Position numbers and translations under genes: made by a program. A stretch of DNA of 64,000 nucleotides from an uncultured bacterium (lineage in GTDB: Bacteria; Bacillota_I; Bacilli_A; RF39; UBA660). The stretch is taken from assembly GCA_947169285.1 (NCBI GenBank), contig CAMVPB010000003.1, positions 7,867 to 71,866 on the forward strand, read 5' to 3'. This document shows positions 1-60,261 of the stretch, piece by piece. Each line of letters begins with the position of its first letter. Position 1 is the stretch's first letter. Below the pieces are notes generated by a model, which ran no database searches, was not told where the DNA came from, and saw nothing but the letters and a program-made list of their open reading frames with translations.

Positions 1-683
1 CAACCAGAAGCTTAAAACTTATGAGAAAGTTTTATTTATTTCAAAAAGGGCAAGCAGCGCCTGCCCAATTGACATGGAGTCACTACATAGAACTTTTACC
101 AATTAAAGATAATAATAAAATTAATTATTATATTAATGTTACTATCAATCAAAAAATATCATATAGAGAACTTAGAAGAAGAATCAAATCTAATGAATAT
201 GAAAGATTAAGTGATAAAACTAAAAATAAACTAATTAACAGAGAGAATATATCTATTAAAGATAATTTATTAAATCCAATTATTATTAATTCCAATAATA
301 AAGATATTGATATATTTAATGAAAAGGCATTAAAAGAATTAATATTAAATGATATTGAAAGTTTTATGAAGCAACTAGGTAATGGATATTCTTTTATAAG
401 TAGTGAATATTCTATTCTACTTGGTGATAGATATAATTATATAGATTTATTATTATTTAATATTAACTTTAATTGTTATGTTGTTATTGAATTAAAAGTT
501 ACTGAACTCAAAAAAGAACATATTGGTCAAATACAAACCTATATGAATTATATTGATTCTAATGTTAAATCTATTTATCAAGGTAATACTATTGGAATTA
601 TTATTTGTAAAAAAGATAATAAATTTGTTATGGAGTATTGTTCTGATGAAAGAGTTTTAAGAACTACTTATCAGTTAAATTAA
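1..683 (+). CDS. YhcG-like PD-(D/E)XK nuclease (DUF1016 family), 5' partial at the window edge; paralog copy A
   Basis: The frame is open from position 3 and the first Met is at 21. The C-terminal 200 aa are nearly identical to the ORFs at 54590..55486 and 59362..60261. A D...ELK PD-(D/E)XK-like core is present (VVIELKVTELKKEHIGQIQTY). Confidence 0.6.
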   Translation, partial: TRSLKLMRKFYLFQKGQAAPAQLTWSHYIELLPIKDNNKINYYINVTINQKISYRELRRRIKSNEYERLSDKTKNKLINRENISIKDNLLNPIIINSNNKDIDIFNEKALKELILNDIESFMKQLGNGYSFISSEYSILLGDRYNYIDLLLFNINFNCYVVIELKVTELKKEHIGQIQTYMNYIDSNVKSIYQGNTIGIIICKKDNKFVMEYCSDERVLRTTYQLN

Positions 684-9874: not shown

Positions 9875-10220
9875 AATAATTTTAATAAGCCATATTTTGT
9901 ACCATAAAGGTGACAAACATTTATCTAAGGTTTCCCTTCCTTTACTCAGTTTAATTCCCTCGTAAAAGTTCCCCTACCAAATTTGGGTTTCTCGCTCGCG
10001 GGGTTTACGTCGTTCCACTTCCTTATCCCTAAGGATATCGTCACTATAGCACTTTTATATCTACTTTAATCAGGTCTTGATTATTTCGAAGCCGTAAAGC
10101 AAAGCTTTCCTAGAGTTATTTTTTTCTCTAGCACGAACACTACTGCCATTTCAGGACAGTGCGAGTATGGACTTTCCTCTACATAAAATCTTATGCAGCG
10201 TTTGTCTAAAAATTATTATT
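9875..10220 (-). ncRNA. rnpB: RNase P RNA, Bacillus type (type B)
   Basis: The minus strand reads ...CGCUGCAUAAGAUUUUAUGUAGAGGAAAGUCCAUACUCGCAC ... GUAGUGUUCGUGCUAGAG ... GUGGAACGACGUAAACCCCGCGAGCGAGAAACCCAAAUUUGGUAGGGGAAC ... GGUACAAAAUAUGGCUUAU. This tracks B. subtilis rnpB closely. P1 can form between AAUAAUUUUUA and UAAAAUUAUU. It is adjacent to gpsB as in B. subtilis, and the region has locally raised GC. Confidence 0.9.
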
Positions 10221-11675: not shown

Positions 11676-12380
11676 TTATTTATCTTCATAATCATCTATC
11701 TTTAATTTTAATGATTGAATTTCAACAAAATTAATGCCATTCATTAAATCTATATATCCATATCTACAATTATATGTGCCATCGTTCAATCTTTCACCAT
11801 TATATTCAACATAGTATAATCTATTATTGACAATTATTGGTTTAGTTGGCAATAAAGCGTTTTCCACAAAAACTCTTGAAGTTGCCTTAGTCGATAAAAC
11901 CTCCCTACCTTCACTGTAAATCCTTAAAGCTGCAACATAATCATGTTCACTTATTGTTACATAATAATTACCAATTTTATAAAGATTAATTTTAGAAGTT
12001 CTATCATTATAGTCAGTAGTATTTATAGAAACTTCATTATTTATTGTTAATTTTATTAAATTACATTTTGATTCATAATTTTCACAATCATACTTATATA
12101 AATTTCCATCTTTGTTGTAAGTCAAATTCTTAAAATTTTCATTTACTTTTCCTTCTGGTAATAATTCTAGTAAGTCATTTAATAAAAATTCCGCCCCACC
12201 ATTTTGTGGAAATTTTAATATTTCAGCAGTTGTAGGTTGATCAACTGAATTATCAGGTGTACTTGGTTTCTCTTCTCCTTTAAAATGATTTACTCCAAAC
12301 CACACACCAAAACCCACTAAACATGTTCCAACTATTGTTAACAATATAATTACTATAGTTGGCATTCTTTTTTCTTCCAT
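11676..12380 (-). CDS. N-terminally membrane-anchored extracytoplasmic protein, paralog 1 of the gene at 23413..24114
   Basis: N-terminus MEEKRMPTIVIILLTIVGTCLVGFGVWFGVNHFKGEEKP is about 70% identical to the N-terminus of the 23413..24114 product; the remainder has diverged. Confidence 0.6.
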   Translation of the reverse strand: MEEKRMPTIVIILLTIVGTCLVGFGVWFGVNHFKGEEKPSTPDNSVDQPTTAEILKFPQNGGAEFLLNDLLELLPEGKVNENFKNLTYNKDGNLYKYDCENYESKCNLIKLTINNEVSINTTDYNDRTSKINLYKIGNYYVTISEHDYVAALRIYSEGREVLSTKATSRVFVENALLPTKPIIVNNRLYYVEYNGERLNDGTYNCRYGYIDLMNGINFVEIQSLKLKIDDYEDK

Positions 12381-12602
12381 ATTTATACCTCTTTTCTATT
12401 ATCTAATATACCACATTTATTATTATTATATTTTACACACTTTACATTTACAGTGTAGAATATTAAATTTAGTATATATTTAATATTTAATAATTTATAA
12501 TTTAAAAACACATATAATAGAAATTAAATTATATGTGTTTTATATACTTATAAATCTTAAAAGAACTCATTTGCATCACTAGACTCACTATGTTAATATG
12601 TC

Positions 12603-12681
12603 TTTGACGTGCTTAAAAAGTGTTAGAGCCCAAATTCATTTGGAATGCATCTAATATCTTTAGAGCACGTCCTTTTTTATT
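12603..12681 (+). ncRNA. Copy 1 of a structured repeat element, the ORF-less variant; predicted about 80-nt RNA with paired 5' and 3' ends and a T-run
   Basis: Upstream TTGCAT-17-TAATAT promoter. The 5' arm gacgtgct pairs with the 3' arm agcacgtc, followed by a T6 run. A convergent minus-strand extended -10 (TGATAAAAT) lies at about 12708..12716. Confidence 0.45.
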
Positions 12682-12721
12682 ATATGAAGTTCCCTTCATC
12701 TATATACATTTTATCAAATAT

Positions 12722-21659: not shown

Positions 21660-21800
21660 TATCCTCCTTTTTTGATTAATAAAGAAAAAGCTTTCCCAAG
21701 GGAAAGCTTATAAACGTTCTATAAGATTTCACCTCGGTAGGATTTATGTTTGTACCTACTGTCTTTGGGGACTTCTTTTCTTCATCGCTTTAGATTATAT
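21660..21800 (-). promoter_or_regulatory. Putative L10 (rplJ) leader autoregulatory RNA region
   Basis: Structured 5' UTR upstream of rplJ. It is locally GC-richer, with stems such as gctttcccttgggaaagc. The position matches the Firmicute L10 leader, but the structure was not verified. Confidence 0.35.
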
Positions 21801-23412: not shown

Positions 23413-24114
23413 TTATTCTATTTCTTTATATTTAGTAATTACCCAATTACCATCAACTTTTTCAAAAGTAGCATTAAAGTATTCTAATAATTCAGAAACT
23501 TCAACATCCCATTCATTTATACTTTTAACTATAATTCTTGTTTCAGCCTTATTATTATTTAAACTAATAATATTCACTTTACTACTTTCGTATCCATAAA
23601 GCCATCCTTTAGAATCAAGTTTACAATAAAGTTTCCCATCTTTTACATAATAGTTTTCCTTACCAATGTTTGAATGACGATTTATGACAGCTATTGACAT
23701 ATATTTTTTTAAATAATCTAAAAGTTCATCATATGATTTAAATTGTTTAGAAATTGCCGCATCATCATTAGGATTATCAATATCTTCTACTACTTGTAAT
23801 TCACCTTCTCCACAATATGTAGTCTCAAGAAAAAAAACATAGACAAATTTATGTATCTTACTAAATTCCGAAACCAACGCATCATTTTCAATATAATTTT
23901 CAGGTTCTTTAATATCATCGCAAGAATTATTTTCTACTTTGTTTGTTTCTGAATTTAAAGATTGCTCTACATTGCTTGATGGTTGTTCTACTGGTTTTTC
24001 TTCTCCTTTAAAATAATTTACTCCATACCATACACAAAATCCTACTAAACATATACCAATTATTGTAAGTATTACTATCAGTATTGGTGACATTCCTTTT
24101 TTCTTTTCTTCCAT
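23413..24114 (-). CDS. N-terminally membrane-anchored extracytoplasmic protein, paralog 2
   Basis: N-terminus MEEKKKGMSPILIVILTIIGICLVGFCVWYGVNYFKGEEKP is conserved with the 11676..12380 product. Confidence 0.6.
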   Translation of the reverse strand: MEEKKKGMSPILIVILTIIGICLVGFCVWYGVNYFKGEEKPVEQPSSNVEQSLNSETNKVENNSCDDIKEPENYIENDALVSEFSKIHKFVYVFFLETTYCGEGELQVVEDIDNPNDDAAISKQFKSYDELLDYLKKYMSIAVINRHSNIGKENYYVKDGKLYCKLDSKGWLYGYESSKVNIISLNNNKAETRIIVKSINEWDVEVSELLEYFNATFEKVDGNWVITKYKEIE

Positions 24115-24353
24115 ATTTTTTATTCACTCCTTTTCGTAAATCATTATACTGTATATATATATATATATATCAATTGCATTATTTATAATTTACATTTTAC
24201 ATTTACATTGTAAATTATTAAAATTTATATATCTTTAATATTTTATAAAACAAAATAAAAAAATACATATAATAAAAATTAAATTATATGTATTTTTTAT
24301 ACCATTAAAACTCAAAAGTATTGATTTGCATCCCAAAACTCTCCATGTTAATA

Positions 24354-24592
24354 TGTCTTAGACACACCTTAATAGATGTTAGTCGTGTGCTTCCTTATTC
24401 TATAAAAATAAGGGAGGTGATATGCATGAATAAAAGAGAAAAATCTTATTATTTCATAATTATCCTCTTGTTTATATTGATATTTATAGTATTAATATTT
24501 AAATAAAAATCACACTAACATCAAAACGATGTTAGTGTGTGACCTCAATGGGAAGCACACCTACTCTTTAAGGTGTGTCCTTTTTTATTTTA
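24354..24592 (+). ncRNA. Copy 2 of the structured repeat element: predicted mRNA with paired 5' and 3' ends carrying a small hydrophobic-peptide ORF
   Basis: TTGCAT-17-TAATAT promoter. Helix P1 is gacacaccttaa (24361-24372) with ttaaggtgtgtc (24569-24580), followed by a T6 run. Helix P2 is gtgtgcttcc with ggaagcacac. An inner hairpin cacactaacatc/gatgttagtgtg acts as a minus-strand terminator (it is followed by a T-run on that strand). A convergent minus-strand extended -10 TGGTATAAT lies at 24615-24623. Confidence 0.5.
24426..24506 (+). CDS. 26-aa ultra-hydrophobic peptide (MNKREKSYYFIIILLFILIFIVLIFK), candidate type I toxin-like small protein
   Basis: Strong SD AAGGGAGGTGA 8 nt upstream. 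A single TM-like segment is followed by a C-terminal Lys. It is conserved as a 24-aa ORF at 40730..40804 (MNKREFSFFIIIIILLIIIYKILF). Confidence 0.5.
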   Translation: MNKREKSYYFIIILLFILIFIVLIFK

Positions 24593-24647
24593 TGAAGTTT
24601 CCTTCAATAAATACATTATACCATTTTTTATATTAGATATACAAGTA

Positions 24648-25187
24648 TTAAGCTTTTGTTATTTGAGTAAGTTCTACTTCTACAGGTGTTTCTTGACCAA
24701 ATAAATCTATTAATATAGTTAATTTTTGATTTTCAGTATCAAGAGTTTCAATCTTACCAAACATTCCTTTGAATGGACCTTCAATAATTTGAACTGAATC
24801 TCCTACTTCAACATCAGTATTAATTTCCATATTATTAATACCTTCATTAGCTAAAATCTTATCAATTTCTTGAGGTAATAATGGAGTTGGTTTAGCACCT
24901 TTACCAGAAGAACCAATAAATCCTGTTACACCTGGTGTATTACGAACTACATACCATGCTTCATCAGACATAATCATTTCTACTAAAACATATCCAGGAA
25001 ACATTTTTTTAACTTTTTCTTTCCTTACACCATCTTTTATTTCTACTTCTTTTTGCTGCGGAATAATAACTCTAAAAATATTATTTTCCATTCCCATTGA
25101 TTCAGTACGCATTTCTAAGTTTTCTTTAACTTTTTCTTCATGTCCTGAATAAGTATTAACTACATACCAAAGTTTTTCACCTTCCAT
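24648..25187 (-). CDS. nusG: Transcription termination/antitermination factor NusG
   Basis: NGN and KOW domains (KOW: GPFKGMFGKIE); follows secE. Confidence 0.93.
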   Translation of the reverse strand: MEGEKLWYVVNTYSGHEEKVKENLEMRTESMGMENNIFRVIIPQQKEVEIKDGVRKEKVKKMFPGYVLVEMIMSDEAWYVVRNTPGVTGFIGSSGKGAKPTPLLPQEIDKILANEGINNMEINTDVEVGDSVQIIEGPFKGMFGKIETLDTENQKLTILIDLFGQETPVEVELTQITKA

Positions 25188-32587: not shown

Positions 32588-34504
32588 TTAAATATTAGAT
32601 ATTTTTTTCTTTTGAGTTAAGAAATAAGCTATTCCTCCAAATGTAACAATGATCAATAATATTCCTCCAACTTCAAATACACCCGTTTTTGGATTAGTAT
32701 TATCACCTTCTTTAACATATATTACCGTTATATAGTGGTCTTCCGATACATCTTCAAATGTATATTGAGTTTCATTACCTTCTGTGGAAATACTTTCACC
32801 ATCTATTTTAATTTCAGATAATTTATATCCTTCATTAGGTGAATATTCAATTGTTTTATCACTTCCCTCAGTAACAACGTCAGAATCAGTTATATTACCA
32901 TAATAAACTTCAGTTATTATTACATATTCATTCTCATTTGTAGGTGTTTCTTCCGAATTCGCTAATACTGTTATTTTTGAAGTTGCAGATTTATTACCAT
33001 CTATAGTTGTAACTGTTATTGTTGCTGTTCCAGGAGAAATTCCTGTAACAACTCCATTTGCATTAACTGTCGCAACTGACGTATCACTACTTGTCCAAAC
33101 AACATTCTTATTAGTTGCATTAGTTGGCGTAACTATTGCCTCTAATTCCTTTGTATCACCCACCTGCATTTTCCAAGTTGATGGCGTTAACACTATTCCT
33201 GTTACACTAACTGTACTGCTTCCACTTGAAGTCCATTGCGCATATACAGTCATATTTGAACTAGCTATTGATGAAGATGTAACTTTTGTTCCACTTCCAT
33301 TCTTTTTTGTGTTCCATTCTTTGAATGTATATCCACTTCTTGTTGGTGTACATAATGTTCCCCATTTGCTTCCAGAGGTTGCTGTTTTTGTAGTTGGACT
33401 ACATGCATTACCACCATTAACATTGTATGTTAGTGTATACTCTACCGTTGTTGGTGATGTAGGACCAGTTGTAGATGAACTTGAACTTCCCGTATTAGCT
33501 TCAAGAACTTCTATTGCTACACTATCAGAGCAGTCATCAGTATCAGTACAACTTGCATCATTAGTTTTAATACTTATTGTTGCTACACCTGGTGATTTTG
33601 CCCTAACTACACCAGTACTTGAAACAGTTGCAATACCACTTGCATCAGTTGAAAAAGTTACGTTTTTGTTTGTCGCATAATTCGGATAAATATTATAAAG
33701 CAAAGGATACTCTTGACCAACTCGCATTTGTATGTGATCTGATTCACTAGCGAATCGTATACGTATTACAGGAATATAGAATATAAATACAGACCCTCCG
33801 CTGTCTTCACACGCAGTTTCGCATGCTGTCCTACTTGTTATATTTTCTTCTTCCCAATACCCAAACTGATTACTATAACACCAACAACCAGTTTCAGATG
33901 CTGAAGGTTCCTGATATGAACTTGAACTTCCCGTATTAGCTTCAAGAACTTCTATTGCTACACTATCAGAGCAGTCATCAGTATCAGTACAACTTGCATC
34001 ATTAGTTTTAATACTTATTGTTGCTACACCTGGTGATTTTGCCCTAACTACACCAGTACTTGAAACAGTTGCAATACCACTTGCATCAGTTGAAAAAGTT
34101 ACGTTTTTGTTTGTCGCATTGCTTGGAGAAATACTATAAAGCAAAGTATACTCTTGACCAACTCGCATTTGTATGTGATCTGATCCACTAGTGAATCGTA
34201 TACGTGTTACAGAAATGGTTGAAGACGTTGAGGAAGAAGATGATGCTGTTGGTTCAACAAAAGACTCAAATGTTAAGCCAAGGTTTTCACATGCACTTTT
34301 GCAAGCACCTAGGCTACTATAACCAGATCCTATAGAAGTTATTGCTCCGTTTTCATTACAAGAGCAAATCCATGTGCTTGTGTCTACCACAGACATACTT
34401 TTTTGTACAGTTATGTTTTTAGCAAATATTGCTGCTACTATAACTGTAAATCCACATAAAATTGGTATTAAAAACATTTTAAAAGCTTTTTTATTATCAT
34501 TCAT
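32588..34504 (-). CDS. Large surface protein with Big_2 domains, two Cys-rich modules, an exact internal repeat of about 100 aa, a Flg_new (Listeria-Bacteroides repeat) domain and a C-terminal TM anchor
   Basis: Signal peptide. Repeated module IRF(T/A)S(G/E)SDHIQMRVGQEY...NKNVTFSTDASGIATVSSTGVVRAKSPGVATISIKTNDASCTDTDDCSD. Flg_new pattern YTLTYNVNGG...GYTFKEWNTKKNGSGT. Big_2 VVWTSSDTSVATVNANGVVTGISPG. C-terminal TM. Confidence 0.75.
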   Translation of the reverse strand: MNDNKKAFKMFLIPILCGFTVIVAAIFAKNITVQKSMSVVDTSTWICSCNENGAITSIGSGYSSLGACKSACENLGLTFESFVEPTASSSSSTSSTISVTRIRFTSGSDHIQMRVGQEYTLLYSISPSNATNKNVTFSTDASGIATVSSTGVVRAKSPGVATISIKTNDASCTDTDDCSDSVAIEVLEANTGSSSSYQEPSASETGCWCYSNQFGYWEEENITSRTACETACEDSGGSVFIFYIPVIRIRFASESDHIQMRVGQEYPLLYNIYPNYATNKNVTFSTDASGIATVSSTGVVRAKSPGVATISIKTNDASCTDTDDCSDSVAIEVLEANTGSSSSSTTGPTSPTTVEYTLTYNVNGGNACSPTTKTATSGSKWGTLCTPTRSGYTFKEWNTKKNGSGTKVTSSSIASSNMTVYAQWTSSGSSTVSVTGIVLTPSTWKMQVGDTKELEAIVTPTNATNKNVVWTSSDTSVATVNANGVVTGISPGTATITVTTIDGNKSATSKITVLANSEETPTNENEYVIITEVYYGNITDSDVVTEGSDKTIEYSPNEGYKLSEIKIDGESISTEGNETQYTFEDVSEDHYITVIYVKEGDNTNPKTGVFEVGGILLIIVTFGGIAYFLTQKKKISNI

Positions 34505-40500: not shown

Positions 40501-40662
40501 TAAAATATCAATAAGTTAAAATTGTGAATTCAGACACACAATTCATTTTCAATTGACAATATTCAATATTTACATATTAGTTTTAATTAATATTTGCATC
40601 AATTGCCAAAGAGCAAAAAGCAATTTTTAATAATTTGAACTATAAAATTTATTGTGATAATA

Positions 40663-40886
40663 TGTCTAAGACATGCTTAAAAAGTGTTAGTGCATTCCTT
40701 TAAACCAAATATTTAAAGGAGGTGATTTTATGAATAAAAGAGAATTTTCTTTTTTTATAATTATTATCATCTTGCTTATTATAATATACAAAATATTATT
40801 TTAAACAAAACGCTCTAACACCTAGGTGTTAGAGCAGCCCAAGATTGGAATGCATCTAATATCTTTAGAGCATGTCCTTTTTATTA
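40663..40886 (+). ncRNA. Copy 3 of the structured repeat element with its small ORF
   Basis: TTGAAC-17-TGATAATAT promoter (40636-40664). P1 is gacatgct (40668-75) with agcatgtc (40869-76), followed by a T5 run. P2 is tgcattcc with ggaatgca. A perfect palindrome gctctaacac-ctag-gtgttagagc followed by gTTTTgTTT on the minus strand acts as a minus-strand terminator. A convergent minus-strand extended -10 TGATATAAT lies at 40911-40919. Confidence 0.5.
40730..40804 (+). CDS. 24-aa ultra-hydrophobic peptide (MNKREFSFFIIIIILLIIIYKILF), ortholog of the 24426..24506 ORF
   Basis: SD AAAGGAGGTGA 5 nt upstream. N-terminus MNKRE is conserved with copy 2 and the hydrophobic core is conserved in character. 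Confidence 0.5.
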   Translation: MNKREFSFFIIIIILLIIIYKILF

Positions 40887-40976
40887 TATGAAGTTTCCTT
40901 CAATAAATACATTATATCATTTTTTATATCTTTTGTATACATAACTATTAAGTGTTTAGTAAAAAATAATAATATA

Positions 40977-44696: not shown

Positions 44697-46157
44697 TCAT
44701 CCTTGAAGATCACCGGGTTGTATACCAATTTCAGCTCCTGGCCGAATATTAATATTACCAGGTTGAACATTAATTAATTCTCCAGTAACAATATCAGAAG
44801 TATTTACTACTATAACCGGGCGAACCCCGAAGTCGCCACCATACGCGAAGATGTCGAAGATAACACTGCCATCAGAAAACACACTCCACACGCCGCCATT
44901 GCTGTTAGCAGAACCCAACCAATAAGATGTTCCATTAAATACTATTCCATTATTTGAACTTGCTAATGATTGCTCTTCTTCATATGTTAGTAATCTTCCT
45001 GTTCCATTTATTCCTAATCTATTTACATATTCTTCCACATAATACGCTATTGTGTATCCATTATTTTGGGCTAATCCATAACCATTATCATAATTTGATG
45101 ATGGTGCTATATTAGACATACTACTTCTATATACTATTGGATAAGGGGTCCCACTATAACTTGCTCCTCCTGTTGCATATTCGCTCTTTAAGTCTGACGT
45201 TCCTGTACATCCCCAAGATGTACCAGTATACTGACATACACTATCATCCCAATAGTTTGTTCCACTAAATGGCACTACTCCTATATATTGGACATTTGAC
45301 CCACTTATATATCCCTTTGCTGTAATATTTTGTAATCCATAACCTGTATCTGATGATGTTAATGTTTTGTTTAATGAATATGCTGAGCCATTATAATCTA
45401 GTATATCACCTACATATAAGTTATATTTAGCTAGTAATACTGTTTCTGTTGCATTTGTACTTACTACATAGAAGTCTTCTCCTGATATTGTTACTTCTTG
45501 TCCTTGAACAACTCTTGTTGCAGACATCGTTATTACATCCCCTCTATCTAATGTTCCTATTGTTCCTTGATCTGTTTTCAAAGATATTGTTGCTGGTTCA
45601 ACTCCTTCTCCTATATTTATTGTTCCATAGAATTCTTTATTTTGATTATAATTTTGATTTGATCCTGTATCTATAAATGTCACTGTTACTGTATATGTAT
45701 GTGTCTCTCCTGGTTCTATCTCTATATTATTTTTTATTGCTATATTATGTGCTAAAGTTGTTTCTGTTGGTATTACTGTTTCACTTATATTACTACAGCT
45801 TCCTGATGAAGATGAGCAAGTTGCTGATATTACTAATTCATTATTTATTATTTCATTATATAAGTCTCTCCATATGATGTTATAGTATGCTGTTGTATTT
45901 CCATTATTATATACTGTTATTGTCTTTGGTGTACTACTCCATGGTGGTGTTACATTCTCTCCACTTCTTATTTCTATATCTGTATATACTAAACTCATAT
46001 TTGCTGTTGTTAATCTCATTGAACTTGCTGTATCATTACCAGTTATTTGTATTGTGAAATATGCATATGATATTCCTGCGATTGCTACTAAAAATACTAA
46101 CGCAGTTAATACTATTATCTTTATTTTATTACTCTTTGTTAATTCATTTTGTTCCAT
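44697..46157 (-). CDS. TasA/camelysin-like secreted protein with a SipW-cognate class signal peptide
   Basis: N-terminus KIKIIVLTALVFLVAIAGISYAYFTIQITGNDTAS matches the SipW-dependent signal signature (G-[ST]-YAYF-[ST]-D). Confidence 0.55.
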   Translation of the reverse strand: MEQNELTKSNKIKIIVLTALVFLVAIAGISYAYFTIQITGNDTASSMRLTTANMSLVYTDIEIRSGENVTPPWSSTPKTITVYNNGNTTAYYNIIWRDLYNEIINNELVISATCSSSSGSCSNISETVIPTETTLAHNIAIKNNIEIEPGETHTYTVTVTFIDTGSNQNYNQNKEFYGTINIGEGVEPATISLKTDQGTIGTLDRGDVITMSATRVVQGQEVTISGEDFYVVSTNATETVLLAKYNLYVGDILDYNGSAYSLNKTLTSSDTGYGLQNITAKGYISGSNVQYIGVVPFSGTNYWDDSVCQYTGTSWGCTGTSDLKSEYATGGASYSGTPYPIVYRSSMSNIAPSSNYDNGYGLAQNNGYTIAYYVEEYVNRLGINGTGRLLTYEEEQSLASSNNGIVFNGTSYWLGSANSNGGVWSVFSDGSVIFDIFAYGGDFGVRPVIVVNTSDIVTGELINVQPGNINIRPGAEIGIQPGDLQG

Positions 46158-46211
46158 GATAAAAACTCCTTATCTTACAAATAAATGATACTATAAATTT
46201 GGGGTTTTGTA

Positions 46212-46236
46212 AATGATTTTTTAATATAAAAATTCT
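46212..46236 (-). terminator. Rho-independent terminator downstream of the pseudouridine synthase gene
   Basis: On the minus strand ttctaacaaaagttagaa is followed by a T5 run. Confidence 0.45.
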
Positions 46237-54482: not shown

Positions 54483-54589
54483 TGGTATTTTTTCCAACAA
54501 AAAAAGTGTTTTAAATAAAAATTTACGATAATATATGTAGAGGATACTTTGAGTATCTTTTTTTATATTTTAGAAAGGAGGTAAAAATA

Positions 54590-55486
54590 ATGAACTATTA
54601 TGATGAAATAAAAAATATTTTAATTTCTAATGAAGCATACAAACAAGTTAAAGATTATTATAAAAATAGAAATGATTTAATGTCTTATTATAATGTTGGT
54701 AAATTATTATTGAAAGCTGGCAATAAATATGGTGAAAGTATTATTAAAAACTATTCTATTAAATTAACCAAAGAACTTGGTAAAGGTTATTCTTGGAGAA
54801 ATCTTTATAATATGAAAACATTTTACTCATTATTTAAAAATGAAGAAATTTTGCAGACATTGTCTGCAAAATTAGCATGGAGTCATTTTTGTGAACTATT
54901 TAAATTTGAAGATGTTAATAAAATTAATTATTATATTAGTATATCTATTAATCAAAATCTATCAGTTAGAGAACTTAGAAGAAGAATTAAATCAAAAGAA
55001 TATGAAAGATTAAGCGATGAAACTAAAAATAAACTAATTAACAAAGAGAATATATCTATTAAAGATAATTTATTAAATCCAATTATTATTAATTCCAATA
55101 ATAAAGATATTAATATATTTAATGAAAAAATATTAAAAGAATTAATTCTTAATGATATTTCTAGTTTTATGGAACAACTTGGTAATGGTTATTCTTTTAT
55201 AAAAGATGAATACCCTATTTTCTTAGGTGATAGATATAATTATATAGATTTATTATTATTTAATATTAATTTTAATTGTTATGTTTGTATTGAATTAAAA
55301 GTTACTGAACTTAAAAAAGATCATATTGGTCAAATACAAACATATATAAATTATATCGATTCTAATGTTAAATCTATATATCAAGATAAAATTATAGGTA
55401 TTATTATATGTAAAAAAGATAATAAATTTGTTATGGAATATTGTTCTGATGAAAGAATACTTAGAACTACTTACCAGTTAAATTAA
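54590..55486 (+). CDS. YhcG-like PD-(D/E)XK nuclease (DUF1016), paralog copy B
   Basis: 298 aa; the C-terminal half is nearly identical to copies A and C (RELRRRIKSKEYERLSDETKNKLINKENISIKDNLLNPIIINSNNKDI...). Confidence 0.65.
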   Translation: MNYYDEIKNILISNEAYKQVKDYYKNRNDLMSYYNVGKLLLKAGNKYGESIIKNYSIKLTKELGKGYSWRNLYNMKTFYSLFKNEEILQTLSAKLAWSHFCELFKFEDVNKINYYISISINQNLSVRELRRRIKSKEYERLSDETKNKLINKENISIKDNLLNPIIINSNNKDINIFNEKILKELILNDISSFMEQLGNGYSFIKDEYPIFLGDRYNYIDLLLFNINFNCYVCIELKVTELKKDHIGQIQTYINYIDSNVKSIYQDKIIGIIICKKDNKFVMEYCSDERILRTTYQLN

Positions 55487-58959: not shown

Positions 58960-59235
58960 TTAATTTCCTAATCCTTCCCATACTATGTTATTAGAATCAT
59001 TGTATCCATCAGTCCATCCCCATAGACCAGTCCCATATAATTCAAAATCACTTGACGATAATTTTTCTTTTATTGTTACTGAAGTTAATAAATTATTAGA
59101 AAATGCATAATTGCCTATTGATTCGATGCTATTTGGAATTGTTACTGAACTCAAGTAATTATACATAAACGCATTTTCATCTATTGTTCTAACACTATTT
59201 GGAATTACTACTGAAGTTAATGATTTTTCTTCCAT
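58960..59235 (-). pseudogene. Leucine-rich repeat (BspA-type LRR_5) protein fragment; likely a gene remnant driven by a duplicated promoter and leader
   Basis: 91 aa with IPNSV..I...AF LRR_5 repeats. It has no signal peptide and is too short for a functional LRR surface protein. The upstream 70 bp and the Met-Glu start are identical to the TasA-like gene at 46157. Confidence 0.45.
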
Positions 59236-59361
59236 GATAAAAACTCCTTATCTTATAAGTAAATATTACTATAAATTTGGGGTTTTATAAATGATTATTA
59301 TTTTTTTATTCAAAAAAAGTGTTTTGGAAAAAAACTAACGATAATATATATAGGAGGATTT

Positions 59362-60261
59362 ATGAACTACTATAATGAAATAAAAAATATATTAATATCT
59401 AATGAAGCTTATAAACAAGTTAAAGATTATTATAAAAATAGAAATGATTTAATGTCTTATTATAATGTTGGTAAATTGTTAATAGAGGCTCAGGGTGGCG
59501 AAGCAAGAGCTAAATATGGAGATAACTTAATTAAAGAGTATTCTATTAAATTAACAAAAGAATTGGGTAAAGGATATACCGTTAGTGAACTCAAAAGAAT
59601 GAGACAATTCTATGTGTTTCAAAAAGGTGCGACAGTGTCGCACCAATTAACATGGAGCCATTACATAGAGTTATTAAAGTTTAATGACGTTAATAAGATT
59701 AATTATTATATTAATATATCTTCTAATCAAAATCTATCAGTTAGAGAACTTAGAAGAAGAATTAAATCAAATGAATATGAAAGATTAAGTGATAAAACTA
59801 AAAATAAACTAATTAACAGAGAGAATATATCTATTAAAGATAATTTATTAAATCCAATTATTATTAATTCCAATAATAAAGATATTGATGTTTTTAATGA
59901 AAAGGCATTAAAAGAATTTATATTAAATGATATTTCTAATTTTATGAAACAACTTGGTAATGGTTACTCTTTTATAGATAGTGAATACCCTATTCTTTTA
60001 GGTGACAGATATAATTATATTGATTTATTACTTTTTAATTATATTTATAATTGTTTTATAGTTATTGAATTAAAAATAACTGAGCTTAAAAAAGAACATA
60101 TAGGTCAAATAGAGACTTATATGCACTTTATTGATTCTAATGTTAAATCTATATATCAAGATAATACTATTGGTATTATTATTTGTAAAAAAGATAATAA
60201 ATTTGTTATGGAATATTGCTCTGATGAAAGAATACTTAGAACTACTTATGAGTTAAATTAA
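59362..60261 (+). CDS. YhcG-like PD-(D/E)XK nuclease (DUF1016), paralog copy C
   Basis: 299 aa; shares long verbatim stretches with copy A (RELRRRIKSNEYERLSDKTKNKLINRENISIKDNLLNPIIINSNNKDID). Confidence 0.65.
   Translation: MNYYNEIKNILISNEAYKQVKDYYKNRNDLMSYYNVGKLLIEAQGGEARAKYGDNLIKEYSIKLTKELGKGYTVSELKRMRQFYVFQKGATVSHQLTWSHYIELLKFNDVNKINYYINISSNQNLSVRELRRRIKSNEYERLSDKTKNKLINRENISIKDNLLNPIIINSNNKDIDVFNEKALKEFILNDISNFMKQLGNGYSFIDSEYPILLGDRYNYIDLLLFNYIYNCFIVIELKITELKKEHIGQIETYMHFIDSNVKSIYQDNTIGIIICKKDNKFVMEYCSDERILRTTYELN

What the first reader, a model, noticed from the sequence alone, without database searches (positions are those of the whole stretch)
24345..24630. Three-copy structured RNA module with convergent promoters and a tiny hydrophobic-peptide ORF: candidate undescribed type I toxin-antitoxin-like locus (best-preserved copy)
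What the sequence shows directly:
- A sigma-A-like promoter (TTGCAT, 17 nt, TAATAT) sits upstream of the 5' arm.
- The 5' arm gacacaccttaa base-pairs perfectly with ttaaggtgtgtc about 200 nt downstream, and a T6 run follows immediately, so the transcript's two ends pair.
- Inside is a second nested helix, gtgtgcttcc with ggaagcacac.
- A strong SD (AAGGGAGGTGA) precedes a 26-aa ORF, MNKREKSYYFIIILLFILIFIVLIFK.
- A perfect hairpin cacactaacatc/gatgttagtgtg is followed by a T-run only on the minus strand, so it reads as a terminator for a minus-strand RNA.
- A minus-strand extended -10 (TGGTATAAT) at 24615-24623 points into the element.
- Covariation across copies: the same long-range helix is maintained with different sequence (copy 1 gacgtgct/agcacgtc; copy 3 gacatgct/agcatgtc). 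That argues for selection on RNA structure.

Inference: an mRNA about 240 nt long whose 3' 90 nt are overlapped by a convergent antisense RNA about 110 nt long. That is the arrangement of txpA/RatA and bsrG/SR4 and of mRNAs with paired 5' and 3' ends. The peptide resembles type I toxins (short, one TM helix, basic end). I do not recognise this peptide or RNA family.
Basis: partly seen in the sequence, partly recalled or inferred. Interest (0 to 1): 0.85.

Follow-up and report, generated by a model that had tools for sequence, protein, structure and literature searches.

The report
New type I toxin-antitoxin-like RNA family
This is one copy of a previously unannotated, multi-copy gene module of uncultured gut bacteria: a tightly folded small mRNA for a 26-residue membrane peptide, overlapped at its 3' end by a convergent small antisense RNA, built like a type I toxin-antitoxin system but matching no described family.

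Summary
The window holds two full copies (24346-24623 and 40655-40919) and one internally deleted remnant (12591-12716). The same module occurs at least 164 times in the DNA I fetched from more than 100 MAG contigs, mostly labelled uncultured Bacilli, Tenericutes or Erysipelotrichaceae.

- **mRNA fold:** the long-range 5'-3' helices P1 and P2 and the post-stop hairpin P3 show heavy covariation. 89% of cells are paired, against 29-41% in slid controls, and 421 cells carry double changes.
- **Which strand:** G.U/A.C asymmetry places P1 and P2 in the plus-strand RNA, and P3 and the 3' hairpin in a minus-strand RNA.
- **Promoters:** both are extended -10 boxes (TGnTATAAT) and are conserved.
- **Peptide:** the ORF is under purifying selection (pN/pS 0.29, against 1.01 out of frame).
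- **Decay pattern:** decayed copies keep the antisense unit and lose the ORF about 33 times, against 1-2 the other way. This is what toxin-antitoxin logic predicts.
- **Known families:** nothing matches in Rfam, Pfam or NCBIfam. The peptides are absent from a 15-billion-protein collection.

Most likely this is a new family of type I toxin-antitoxin modules of the 3'-overlap class (like txpA/RatA and bsrG/SR4), with a 5'-3' closing helix as in Fst RNA I. Transcription, toxicity and antitoxin action remain untested.

The parts
24346..24354 (+). Copy 2: plus-strand extended -10 promoter TGTTAATAT (mRNA promoter)
   Evidence: Sequence. The consensus TGnTATAAT is conserved at alignment columns 6-14 in 69/75 copies, and these positions were not in the search pattern.
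24361..24372 (+). Copy 2: P1 5' arm (GACACACCTTAA), at the predicted 5' end of the mRNA
   Evidence: Pairs with 24568-24579. P1 has 9/9 pairs with compensatory changes and 94% of cells paired. 64/64 copies pair the 5' arm with the 3' end in the MFE fold.
24375..24394 (+). Copy 2: 5'-UTR strand X / P2 5' strand (GATGTTAGTCGTGTGCTTCC). Complementary to both the P2 3' strand and the 5' arm of P3.
   Evidence: P2 has 13/14 pairs with double changes. The alternative helix X:Y is 86% paired against about 40% in slid controls.
24410..24420 (+). Copy 2: Shine-Dalgarno AAGGGAGGTGA, predicted to be sequestered
   Evidence: SD nucleotides are paired in 0.82 of cases in MFE folds. Pyrimidine anti-SD tract upstream: longest run 7.4 against 6.2 in shuffles, p=1e-8.
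24426..24506 (+). Copy 2: ORF for MNKREKSYYFIIILLFILIFIVLIFK (26 aa, stop included), the candidate toxin
   Evidence: Family-wide pN/pS is 0.29 against 1.01 in the +1 frame. 99-108 of 114 full-length copies keep such an ORF.
24511..24539 (-). Copy 2: P3 hairpin, the intrinsic terminator of the antisense RNA (T-run on the minus strand = 24501-24509)
   Evidence: Terminator scan calls it on the minus strand only. 95% of copies have an A-run before P3 and 1% a T-run after it. G.U on minus 32 against G.U on plus 11.
24551..24560 (+). Copy 2: P2 3' strand (GGAAGCACAC)
24568..24591 (+). Copy 2: P1 3' arm (TTAAGGTGTGTC) followed by the T-run; terminator and 3' end of the mRNA
24593..24606 (-). Copy 2: conserved hairpin TGAAG-GAAA-CTTCA at the 5' end of the antisense RNA
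   Evidence: The stem is near-invariant in 155 copies. Changes are either compensatory or give G.U on the minus strand only (6 against 0). The loop is GNRA in almost all copies.
24615..24623 (-). Copy 2: minus-strand extended -10 promoter TGGTATAAT (antisense RNA promoter)
   Evidence: A TAnnnT box lies 6-11 nt before the hairpin in 74/75 copies, with the TG extension in 68/75.
24500..24609 (-). Copy 2: predicted antisense RNA (about 105-113 nt), the candidate antitoxin: 5' hairpin, A-rich linker, middle hairpin, terminator
   Evidence: Fold z -6.35. Ends are inferred from the promoter and terminator.
40655..40919 (+). Copy 3: complete second module. Ext -10 40655-40663; P1 40670-40677 / 40869-40876; SD 40715-40725; ORF 40730-40804 (MNKREFSFFIIIIILLIIIYKILF); P3 40811-40836; hairpin 40889-40902; minus -10 40911-40919.
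12591..12716 (+). Copy 1: internally deleted remnant. Ext -10 12591-12599; P1 12606-12613 / 12664-12671; hairpin 12685-12698; minus -10 12708-12716. No SD, no ORF, no minus-strand terminator. Its antisense unit is near-identical to the 3' region of copy 3.

Best explanation
This is a self-contained sense/antisense module with the architecture of a type I toxin-antitoxin system.

(1) An extended -10 promoter on the plus strand makes an mRNA of about 230 nt. Its first ~35 nt pair with its last ~35 nt (helices P1 and P2), just before the U-run terminator. This closes the molecule around an SD-sequestering hairpin, a 24-34-codon ORF and hairpin P3.

(2) A second extended -10 promoter on the minus strand makes an RNA of about 105-113 nt. 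It starts with a conserved GNRA hairpin and an A-rich linker and ends at P3, which serves as its terminator. This RNA is fully complementary to the last ~100 nt of the mRNA: the U-tail, the P1 and P2 3' strands, P3 and the stop codon.

(3) Inferred: pairing of the two RNAs unzips P1 and P2, exposes the mRNA 5' end and creates a long duplex for RNase III, so the mRNA is destroyed. Without the antisense RNA, the stable closed mRNA persists and yields a single-pass membrane peptide with a K/R-rich N-terminus that damages the membrane.

Shown here by sequence analysis: the two transcription units, the mRNA fold and the fact that the ORF codes for protein. Inferred by analogy: RNA decay, toxicity, and the role of the antisense RNA as antitoxin.
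For: - Fold z-scores are -9.4 and -10.
- RNAalifold on 75 copies recovers P1, P2 and P3, with 27/34 pairs compensatory.
- 89.3% of cells are paired against 29-41% in slid controls; 421 cells carry double changes against 60-87; 0/500 shuffles reach the observed values.
- G.U against A.C counts: P1 75/14 and P2 101/30, pointing to a plus-strand RNA. P3 11/32, pointing to a minus-strand RNA. An A-run precedes P3 in 95% of copies.
- 3' hairpin variants: compensatory GA/TC changes, and 6 one-sided changes that all give G.U on the minus strand.
- Both promoters are conserved outside the search pattern.
- ORF pN/pS is 0.29 (0.22 in disjoint pairs) against 1.01 in the +1 frame.
- 164 copies: 114 full-length, 27 with the 3' part only and at most 3 with the 5' part only.
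- ORF lost with the antisense unit kept about 33 times, against 1-2 credible reverse cases.
- Tandem arrays and several copies per genome.
- No recurrent partner gene.
- Architecture matches published type I systems: 3' overlap of 100-140 bp with RNase III (PMC6562991); a 5' upstream helix and an SD-sequestering stem-loop (PMC7472228); the SD/anti-SD and 5'-3' interaction descriptors used to find type I toxin mRNAs (PMC8594479).
Against: - There is no expression data for either strand. No toxicity test or RNA-RNA interaction test is possible here.
- The peptides resemble no known toxin family. Their charge is N-terminal, not the C-terminal pattern of Fst, TxpA or BsrG.
- Predicted SD occlusion is only modestly above the composition-matched control (0.82 against 0.71). 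It does not change when the antisense-complementary region is masked, so translational control by the antisense RNA is unsupported.
- Covariation counts are per sequence, not per independent event, so relatedness inflates them.
- All loci were found through the 3' motif, so the family's true breadth and the motif's conservation are biased estimates.
Confidence: 0.72

Rival explanations
1. The peptide is a non-toxic small membrane protein, for example a modulator of a membrane complex. Its synthesis is tuned by a cis-antisense RNA. The RNA anatomy is the same, but there is no addiction or killing function.
For: The coding gene and the antisense unit are shown only by sequence. There is no similarity to any known toxin. 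Copies sit in the chromosome next to housekeeping genes and are not found on plasmids or phages.
Against: - Many divergent copies per genome and tandem arrays are unusual for a housekeeping small protein.
- Decay is strongly asymmetric: about 33 copies keep the antisense unit and lose the ORF, against 1-2 the other way.
- The mRNA is extremely closed.
- Four or more peptide subfamilies share only the pattern 'basic N-terminus plus hydrophobic helix'.
Confidence: 0.18
2. It is a miniature mobile element (MITE-like) whose terminal inverted repeats are the two 'arms'. The ORF and the promoters would be incidental.
For: More than 160 dispersed copies with inverted-repeat ends in unrelated intergenic sites. 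Copies 1 and 2 arose within a larger segmental duplication.
Against: - The arms covary instead of keeping a transposase-binding sequence, and they tolerate G.U only on the plus strand.
- The ORF is under purifying selection.
- The most conserved sequence lies outside the arms, at the antisense promoter and hairpin.
- No transposase gene recurs nearby.
- Target-site duplications were not examined.
Confidence: 0.04
3. The conserved palindrome ATGAAG-N4-CTTCAT is a DNA operator for a dimeric regulator that controls the minus-strand promoter. It would not be an RNA hairpin.
For: Its sequence is almost invariant while every other helix covaries. It has 6-4-6 geometry with half-site centres 10 bp apart, and it overlaps the predicted antisense transcription start.
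Against: All six one-sided changes keep pairing as G.U on the minus-strand RNA and none keeps it on the plus strand. The minus-strand loop stays GNRA (GAAA, GGAA, GTAA) in almost all copies. The numbers are small (4-5 independent events), and the two roles are not mutually exclusive.
Confidence: 0.12

Closest known systems
txpA/RatA, bsrG/SR4, bsrE/SR5 and yonT/SR6 of Bacillus subtilis (type I toxin-antitoxin systems with 3' overlap)
   Same: Convergent promoters. An antisense RNA of about 100 nt is fully complementary to the 3' end of a small toxin mRNA over about 100 nt; the published range is 100-140 bp with RNase III-dependent decay (PMC6562991). The peptide has a single hydrophobic helix, and the mRNA is highly structured with an occluded SD.
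   Different: - No sequence similarity of peptide or RNA.
- The peptide is shorter (24-34 aa) and its charge is at the N-terminus.
- Not prophage-borne.
- The mRNA is closed by a 23-bp 5'-3' helix.
- The antisense 5' hairpin and promoter are conserved across all subfamilies.
- No support for an SR4-like conformational effect on the SD.
par (Fst RNA I / RNA II) of Enterococcus faecalis pAD1 and the Fst/Ldr superfamily
   Same: An mRNA of about 230 nt for a peptide of about 30 aa. Convergent promoters. An intramolecular helix sequesters the extreme 5' end (5'-UH), and a 5' stem-loop sequesters the SD (PMC7472228). A DNA direct repeat (X in the 5' UTR and X' inside the antisense gene) gives a possible second region of complementarity, reminiscent of DRa/DRb.
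   Different: - No PxxxG motif (0/99) and no Fst or Ldr profile hit.
- The two RNAs have separate terminators and overlap by about 100 nt, rather than sharing one bidirectional terminator.
- The repeat does not cover the start codon.
hok/Sok and aapA1/IsoA1 (mRNAs kept inactive by a 5'-3' long-distance interaction)
   Same: The full-length mRNA is locked by pairing of its two ends, and alternative or metastable pairings are embedded in the mRNA (PMC8594479; PMC6733600 abstract). Here the 5'-UTR strand can pair with two different downstream segments.
   Different: In those systems the antisense RNA targets the 5' region; here it overlaps the 3' end. There is no leader ORF, and no evidence here for activation by 3' processing. 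The hosts are Gram-negative.

Membership tests
Type I toxin-antitoxin system (generic kind) | Small hydrophobic, membrane-type peptide ORF (<60 aa) that is really coding | tested here: met
   26 aa and 24 aa in the window. Family median is 27 aa, with a hydrophobic run of at least 10 residues in 99/114 copies. pN/pS 0.29 against 1.01 out of frame.
Type I toxin-antitoxin system (generic kind) | An antisense RNA gene complementary to the toxin mRNA | tested here: met
   Conserved minus-strand extended -10 (74/75). Minus-strand terminator. Wobble asymmetry specific to the minus strand. Transcription itself was not observed.
Type I toxin-antitoxin system (generic kind) | Toxin mRNA with a sequestered SD and/or a 5'-3' long-distance interaction | tested here: met
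   P1 and P2 covariation. 64/64 MFE folds pair the two ends. Anti-SD tract; SD occlusion is only modestly above control.
Type I toxin-antitoxin system (generic kind) | The peptide is toxic when expressed without the antisense RNA, and the antisense RNA neutralises it | not testable with these tools
   Indirect evidence only: orphan antisense units far outnumber orphan ORFs.
Fst/Ldr superfamily (par) | Toxin with the conserved PxxxG motif / match to the Fst or Ldr profile | tested here: not met
   PxxxG in 0/99 peptides. No Fst or Ldr hit in Pfam or NCBIfam even at E<=10.
Fst/Ldr superfamily (par) | Shared bidirectional terminator for the two RNAs | tested here: not met
   The mRNA terminator (P1 3' arm plus T-run, 24568-24591) and the antisense terminator (P3, 24511-24539) are about 50 nt apart, and the RNAs overlap by about 100 nt.
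TxpA/BsrG-type toxins of Bacillus | Sequence homology of the toxin; residence on a prophage or prophage remnant | tested here: not met
   No profile hit. No phage or viral matches. Neighbours are housekeeping genes.
TxpA/BsrG-type systems of Bacillus | [quoted passage not shown] | tested here: met
   The predicted overlap is about 24500-24591 in copy 2, roughly 90-100 nt. The published range is from PMC6562991.
Any Rfam family (including known antitoxin sRNAs) | Score at or above the family's gathering threshold | tested here: not met
   No hit in the window element or in 8 other loci at the gathering threshold. The best sub-threshold hit is 23.5 bits against a gathering score of 99.
MITE / non-autonomous transposon | Sequence-conserved terminal inverted repeats and target-site duplications | tested here: not met
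   The arms covary (9/9 P1 pairs with double changes) and show plus-strand G.U bias. Target-site duplications were not examined.

The most novel reading that the evidence does not exclude
The near-invariant 5' module of the antisense RNA (extended -10, GNRA hairpin, A-rich linker) may be a shared handle read by one host factor: a regulator, an RNase or an RNA chaperone. It is shared by copies whose peptides and helices have otherwise diverged into mutually orthogonal pairs. In that case, dozens of orthogonal toxin-antitoxin pairs per genome would be switched together by one signal. The three-way complementarity (the 5'-UTR strand pairing with either P2 or P3) would act as an RNA switch that sets when each mRNA becomes translatable. 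That would be a coordinated type I toxin 'regulon' in small-genome gut Bacilli.
Probability: 0.15. Interest if true: 0.75.

Novelty: new member of a known kind. Interest (0 to 1): 0.58.

Why it matters
Type I toxin-antitoxin families are hard to find, because neither the tiny peptide nor the small RNA is annotated. T1TAdb works from 16 known families (PMC8594479). None of the ten peptides looked up here is in a collection of 15 billion proteins.

If confirmed, this would be a new and abundant family in a poorly known group of uncultured gut Bacilli. It comes with a ready alignment of more than 100 natural variants that already defines the mRNA fold, the antisense RNA and both promoters. The many naturally orthogonal sense/antisense pairs could also serve as a parts set for RNA-based regulation. 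The asymmetric decay of copies gives a sequence-only line of evidence for toxicity.

Tried and rejected
1. Metagenome-contig scan with a pattern that left the 14 hairpin bases free. All 12 hits were chance matches with no element.
2. Viral contig scans with the 5' and 3' motifs: 0 hits. BLAST against phages: none. Against plasmids: one 71-nt AT-rich hit, E=5e-4, taken as chance.
The exact look-up found none of 10 peptides.
4. My first 5'-motif regex found only the window copies, because the 5' arm covaries.
5. The cross-copy arm-matching test was only weakly discriminating, because many copies share arms. It was replaced by alignment-based counts.
7. An SR4-like mechanism, in which antisense binding increases SD sequestration: masking the complementary region left SD pairing unchanged (0.81 against 0.82). 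This is unsupported.
8. A conserved partner gene: none found.
9. Literature searches for a description of this family: none found.
10. No covariance model was built. nhmmer plus pair counting answered the same questions.

Full report
**What is in the window**

The region 24345-24630 lies between a divergent 233-aa membrane-anchored protein gene (23413-24114, minus strand) and nusG (24648-25187, minus strand).

- TGTTAATAT at 24346-24354.
- 5' arm 24361-24372, perfectly complementary to 24568-24579, followed by T6 at 24581-24586.
- Nested helix 24385-24394 with 24551-24560.
- SD at 24410-24420.
- ORF 24426-24506, MNKREKSYYFIIILLFILIFIVLIFK.
- Hairpin 24511-24539.
- Minus-strand TGGTATAAT at 24615-24623.

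The terminator scan calls the hairpin on the minus strand only. It also finds a local plus-strand terminator hairpin (24555-24578) that shares its 3' arm with the long-range helix. The proposed -35 (TTGCAT) is weak; the conserved promoter feature is the TG extension.

The predicted mRNA folds at -79 kcal/mol against -38 for shuffles (z -9.4). The copy-3 mRNA gives z -10.

Repeat search and alignment show a second full copy at 40655-40919, with the ORF MNKREFSFFIIIIILLIIIYKILF. They also show a short copy at 12591-12716. The short copy is an internal deletion between two direct repeats (GTGTTAGAGC). The deletion removed the SD, the ORF and one arm of the hairpin.

**A large family**

The organism is an uncultured gut bacterium; the identical NusG occurs on an ENA metagenome scaffold. 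These came from MAGs labelled uncultured Bacilli, Tenericutes, Erysipelotrichaceae, 'Mycoplasma sp. CAG:877/CAG:611', 'Coprobacillus sp. CAG:605' and Candidatus Coprosoma. Several loci hold tandem arrays with about 370-nt spacing.

An HMM of 75 aligned copies finds 164 copies in the DNA fetched:

| Class | Copies |
|---|---|
| Full-length | 114 |
| 3' part only | 27 |
| Cut by locus ends | 15 |
| Internal fragments | 5 |
| 5' part only | at most 3 |

No copy was found on viral contigs, phages or plasmids. Neighbouring genes are diverse housekeeping genes in either orientation: 161 clusters among 256 neighbouring ORFs. The module is therefore free-standing.

**The plus-strand RNA**

RNAalifold on alignment A2 (75 copies) recovers three helices. 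P1 is the extreme 5' end paired with the segment just before the T-run. P2 is the next 14 bp. P3 is the hairpin after the stop codon.

| Measure | Observed | Slid controls |
|---|---|---|
| Cells that form a standard pair | 89.3% | 29-41% |
| Cells with a change on both sides | 421 | 60-87 |
| Pairs with a change on both sides | 27 of 28 | 16-22 |

No shuffle out of 500 reached the observed values. These counts are per sequence, not per event.

In all 64 copies assessed, the MFE structure pairs the 5' arm with the last 35 nt. Mean MFE is -74.9 against -39.5 kcal/mol for shuffles.

The 5' arm begins 6-8 nt after a TGnTATAAT box that is conserved although it was not in the search pattern.

The SD is mostly paired (0.82 of SD nucleotides against 0.71 in composition-matched controls). 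Its partner is often a pyrimidine tract 24-36 nt upstream (longest complementary run 7.4 against 6.2, p=1e-8).

**The peptide is real**

Between related copies of equal length, pN/pS is 0.29 (0.22 in ten disjoint nearest pairs). The same sequences read in the +1 frame give 1.01.

Peptides are 17-49 aa, median 27. They have about two K/R residues in the first eight positions, then an uninterrupted hydrophobic helix, and often end in K or KK.

They form several subfamilies, for example MNKKDFLILSLVIIIFLLLFLLFIVLI, MTKREKS..FIIILLFILIF..FK and MKTKTFIIKVLKLISIILLL...IKK.

No Pfam or NCBIfam family comes near its cut-off. The best hit to a toxin model is HokA at 12.4 bits against a cut-off of 89. 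None has the PxxxG motif of Fst. None of ten peptides looked up is in a collection of 15 billion proteins.

**The minus-strand RNA**

Three independent lines place a second transcript on the minus strand.

1. Terminator. An A-run precedes P3 in 95% of copies, which gives a T-run after the hairpin on the minus strand. Only 1% have a T-run after P3 on the plus strand.
2. Wobble asymmetry. P1 and P2 carry G.U on the plus strand (75 against 14, and 101 against 30). P3 carries it on the minus strand (32 against 11).
3. Promoter and hairpin. A TGnTATAAT box lies 6-11 nt upstream of a hairpin TGAAG-GAAA-CTTCA (74/75 copies).

In 155 copies this hairpin stem is almost invariant. The exceptions are either double compensatory changes (GA/TC, three copies) or single changes that keep pairing as G.U on the minus strand only (six copies against none the other way). 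The minus-strand loop is GAAA, GGAA or GTAA in nearly all copies.

Because loci were selected through this motif, its conservation is overestimated. Among the roughly 34 'extra' copies in the fetched flanks, about half match the 25-nt pattern exactly.

The predicted antisense RNA (about 24609 to 24500) folds as a 5' hairpin, an A-rich single-stranded linker, a middle hairpin and the terminator, with z -6.4 (copy 2) and -5.0 (copy 3). The linker is complementary to the U-rich 3' tail of the mRNA, which makes it a plausible nucleation site. This last point is an inference.

**An unexplained feature**

The 5'-UTR strand of P2 is also complementary to the 5' arm of P3, again with covariation: 86% paired against about 40% in slid controls, and 129 cells with double changes. 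So the mRNA holds two copies of a segment and two copies of its complement.

This allows alternative folds. Equivalently, it gives the antisense RNA a second site of complementarity in the 5' UTR, reminiscent of the DRa/DRb repeats of par (PMC7472228). The same repeats explain the deletion that produced copy 1. I could not decide which role is selected.

**Is it a toxin-antitoxin system?**

Direct evidence is out of reach here. The indirect evidence is as follows.

- Many divergent copies per genome, and tandem arrays.
- An mRNA closed at both ends with an occluded SD.
- A strongly asymmetric decay pattern, described next.

27 copies retain only the antisense unit. Of the 21 that could be assessed, 19 keep the hairpin and a -10 box, and 16 keep a terminator. 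About 6 full-length copies have a broken ORF (ATG to ATA twice, SD loss, deletions) with an intact antisense unit. Only 1-2 credible copies keep an ORF without a recognisable antisense unit.

A gene that is harmful without its partner would decay in exactly this way.

In the window, the antisense unit of the ORF-less copy 1 is near-identical to the 3' region of copy 3 over about 58 nt, so it could act on the copy-3 mRNA. Copy 2 has different helices and would be orthogonal.

**Mechanism proposed**

By analogy with txpA/RatA, bsrG/SR4, bsrE/SR5 and yonT/SR6 (3' overlap of 100-140 bp, RNase III; PMC6562991), the antisense RNA pairs with the last ~100 nt of the mRNA. This opens P1 and P2, exposes the 5' end and triggers decay.

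The closing helix would otherwise stabilise the mRNA, as the 5' upstream helix does for Fst RNA I (PMC7472228).

I tested whether antisense binding would also tighten SD sequestration, as SR4 does. Masking the complementary region did not change predicted SD pairing (0.81 against 0.82), so I do not claim it.

**Comparison and novelty**

The architecture belongs to the known kind 'type I toxin-antitoxin, 3'-overlap class'. Membership in any described family fails on the tests available:

- No Fst, Ldr, Hok or TxpA profile match.
- No PxxxG motif.
- No shared bidirectional terminator.
- No prophage context.
- No Rfam family.
- No paper found that describes it.

I classify it as a new member (a new family) of a known kind. 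It has two unusual traits that deserve experiments. One is the near-invariant antisense 5' module, shared by otherwise orthogonal copies. The other is the three-way complementarity.

**Confidence**

- The sense/antisense small-ORF module is real and under selection: about 0.9.
- It functions as a toxin-antitoxin pair: about 0.7.

Noticed in passing
window 12230-12640 and 23960-24400: Copies 1 and 2 lie inside a larger segmental duplication of about 370 nt at about 80% identity. It also covers the 5' end of the divergent genes 11676-12380 and 23413-24114. The two proteins share only the N-terminal membrane anchor (34/64 identical residues) and have unrelated C-terminal parts. One has a sub-threshold IseA-like endopeptidase-inhibitor hit (27.9 bits against a cut-off of 29.9).
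   Followed up: partly
window 24262-24292 and 12510-12540: A conserved inverted repeat (ACATATAAT..ATTATATGT) sits between the divergent membrane-protein gene and the element in both duplicated loci. An (AT)n microsatellite at about 24150-24170 is present only upstream of copy 2.
   Followed up: no
window 12604-12682 (+): The deleted copy 1 would still give a 79-nt plus-strand RNA that folds into one long hairpin followed by a T-run (z -7.5). Its minus-strand unit has lost its terminator. Its 3' region is near-identical to that of copy 3 over about 58 nt, so cross-regulation of copy 3 is possible.
   Followed up: partly
window 24422-24433: An upstream ATG 4 nt before the real start opens a 3-codon out-of-frame mini-ORF (ATG CAT GAA TAA) that overlaps the start of the peptide ORF in copy 2. 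It was not examined in other copies.
   Followed up: no
window 21-352, 54824-55155, 59599-59930 (also 54486-54825 / 59299-59612 and 46138-46221 / 59216-59299): A separate three-copy repeat family of at least 300 nt at 80-87% identity, with extended similarity between the 54.5-kb and 59.3-kb regions. It is unrelated to the element.
   Followed up: no
window 33475-33774 and 33916-34215: A tandem 300-nt repeat, 96% identical, with 441-nt spacing. It probably lies within a repeat-containing gene.
   Followed up: no
window 9881-10213 (-) and 21673-21786 (-): RNase P class B RNA (253 bits) and the ribosomal protein L10 leader (54.6 bits). These are the only Rfam families found in the window.
   Followed up: yes
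L012, and 10 further loci (neighbour cluster): The only recurrent neighbour is a family of large N-terminally anchored proteins (about 640 aa): 18 ORFs in 11 loci, on either side of the element and in either orientation. No functional link is evident.
   Followed up: no
L018, L045, L054, L055: Four loci that carry the element come from bins labelled Muribaculaceae (Bacteroidota), which is at odds with all the others (Bacilli, Tenericutes). This is probably mis-binning rather than true distribution.
   Followed up: no
L090 6026-6700: Two tandem copies carry a hairpin with two compensated base pairs (ATGAGA-TTTT-TCTCAT) and a non-GNRA loop. This shows the stem can change if both sides change.
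   Followed up: partly
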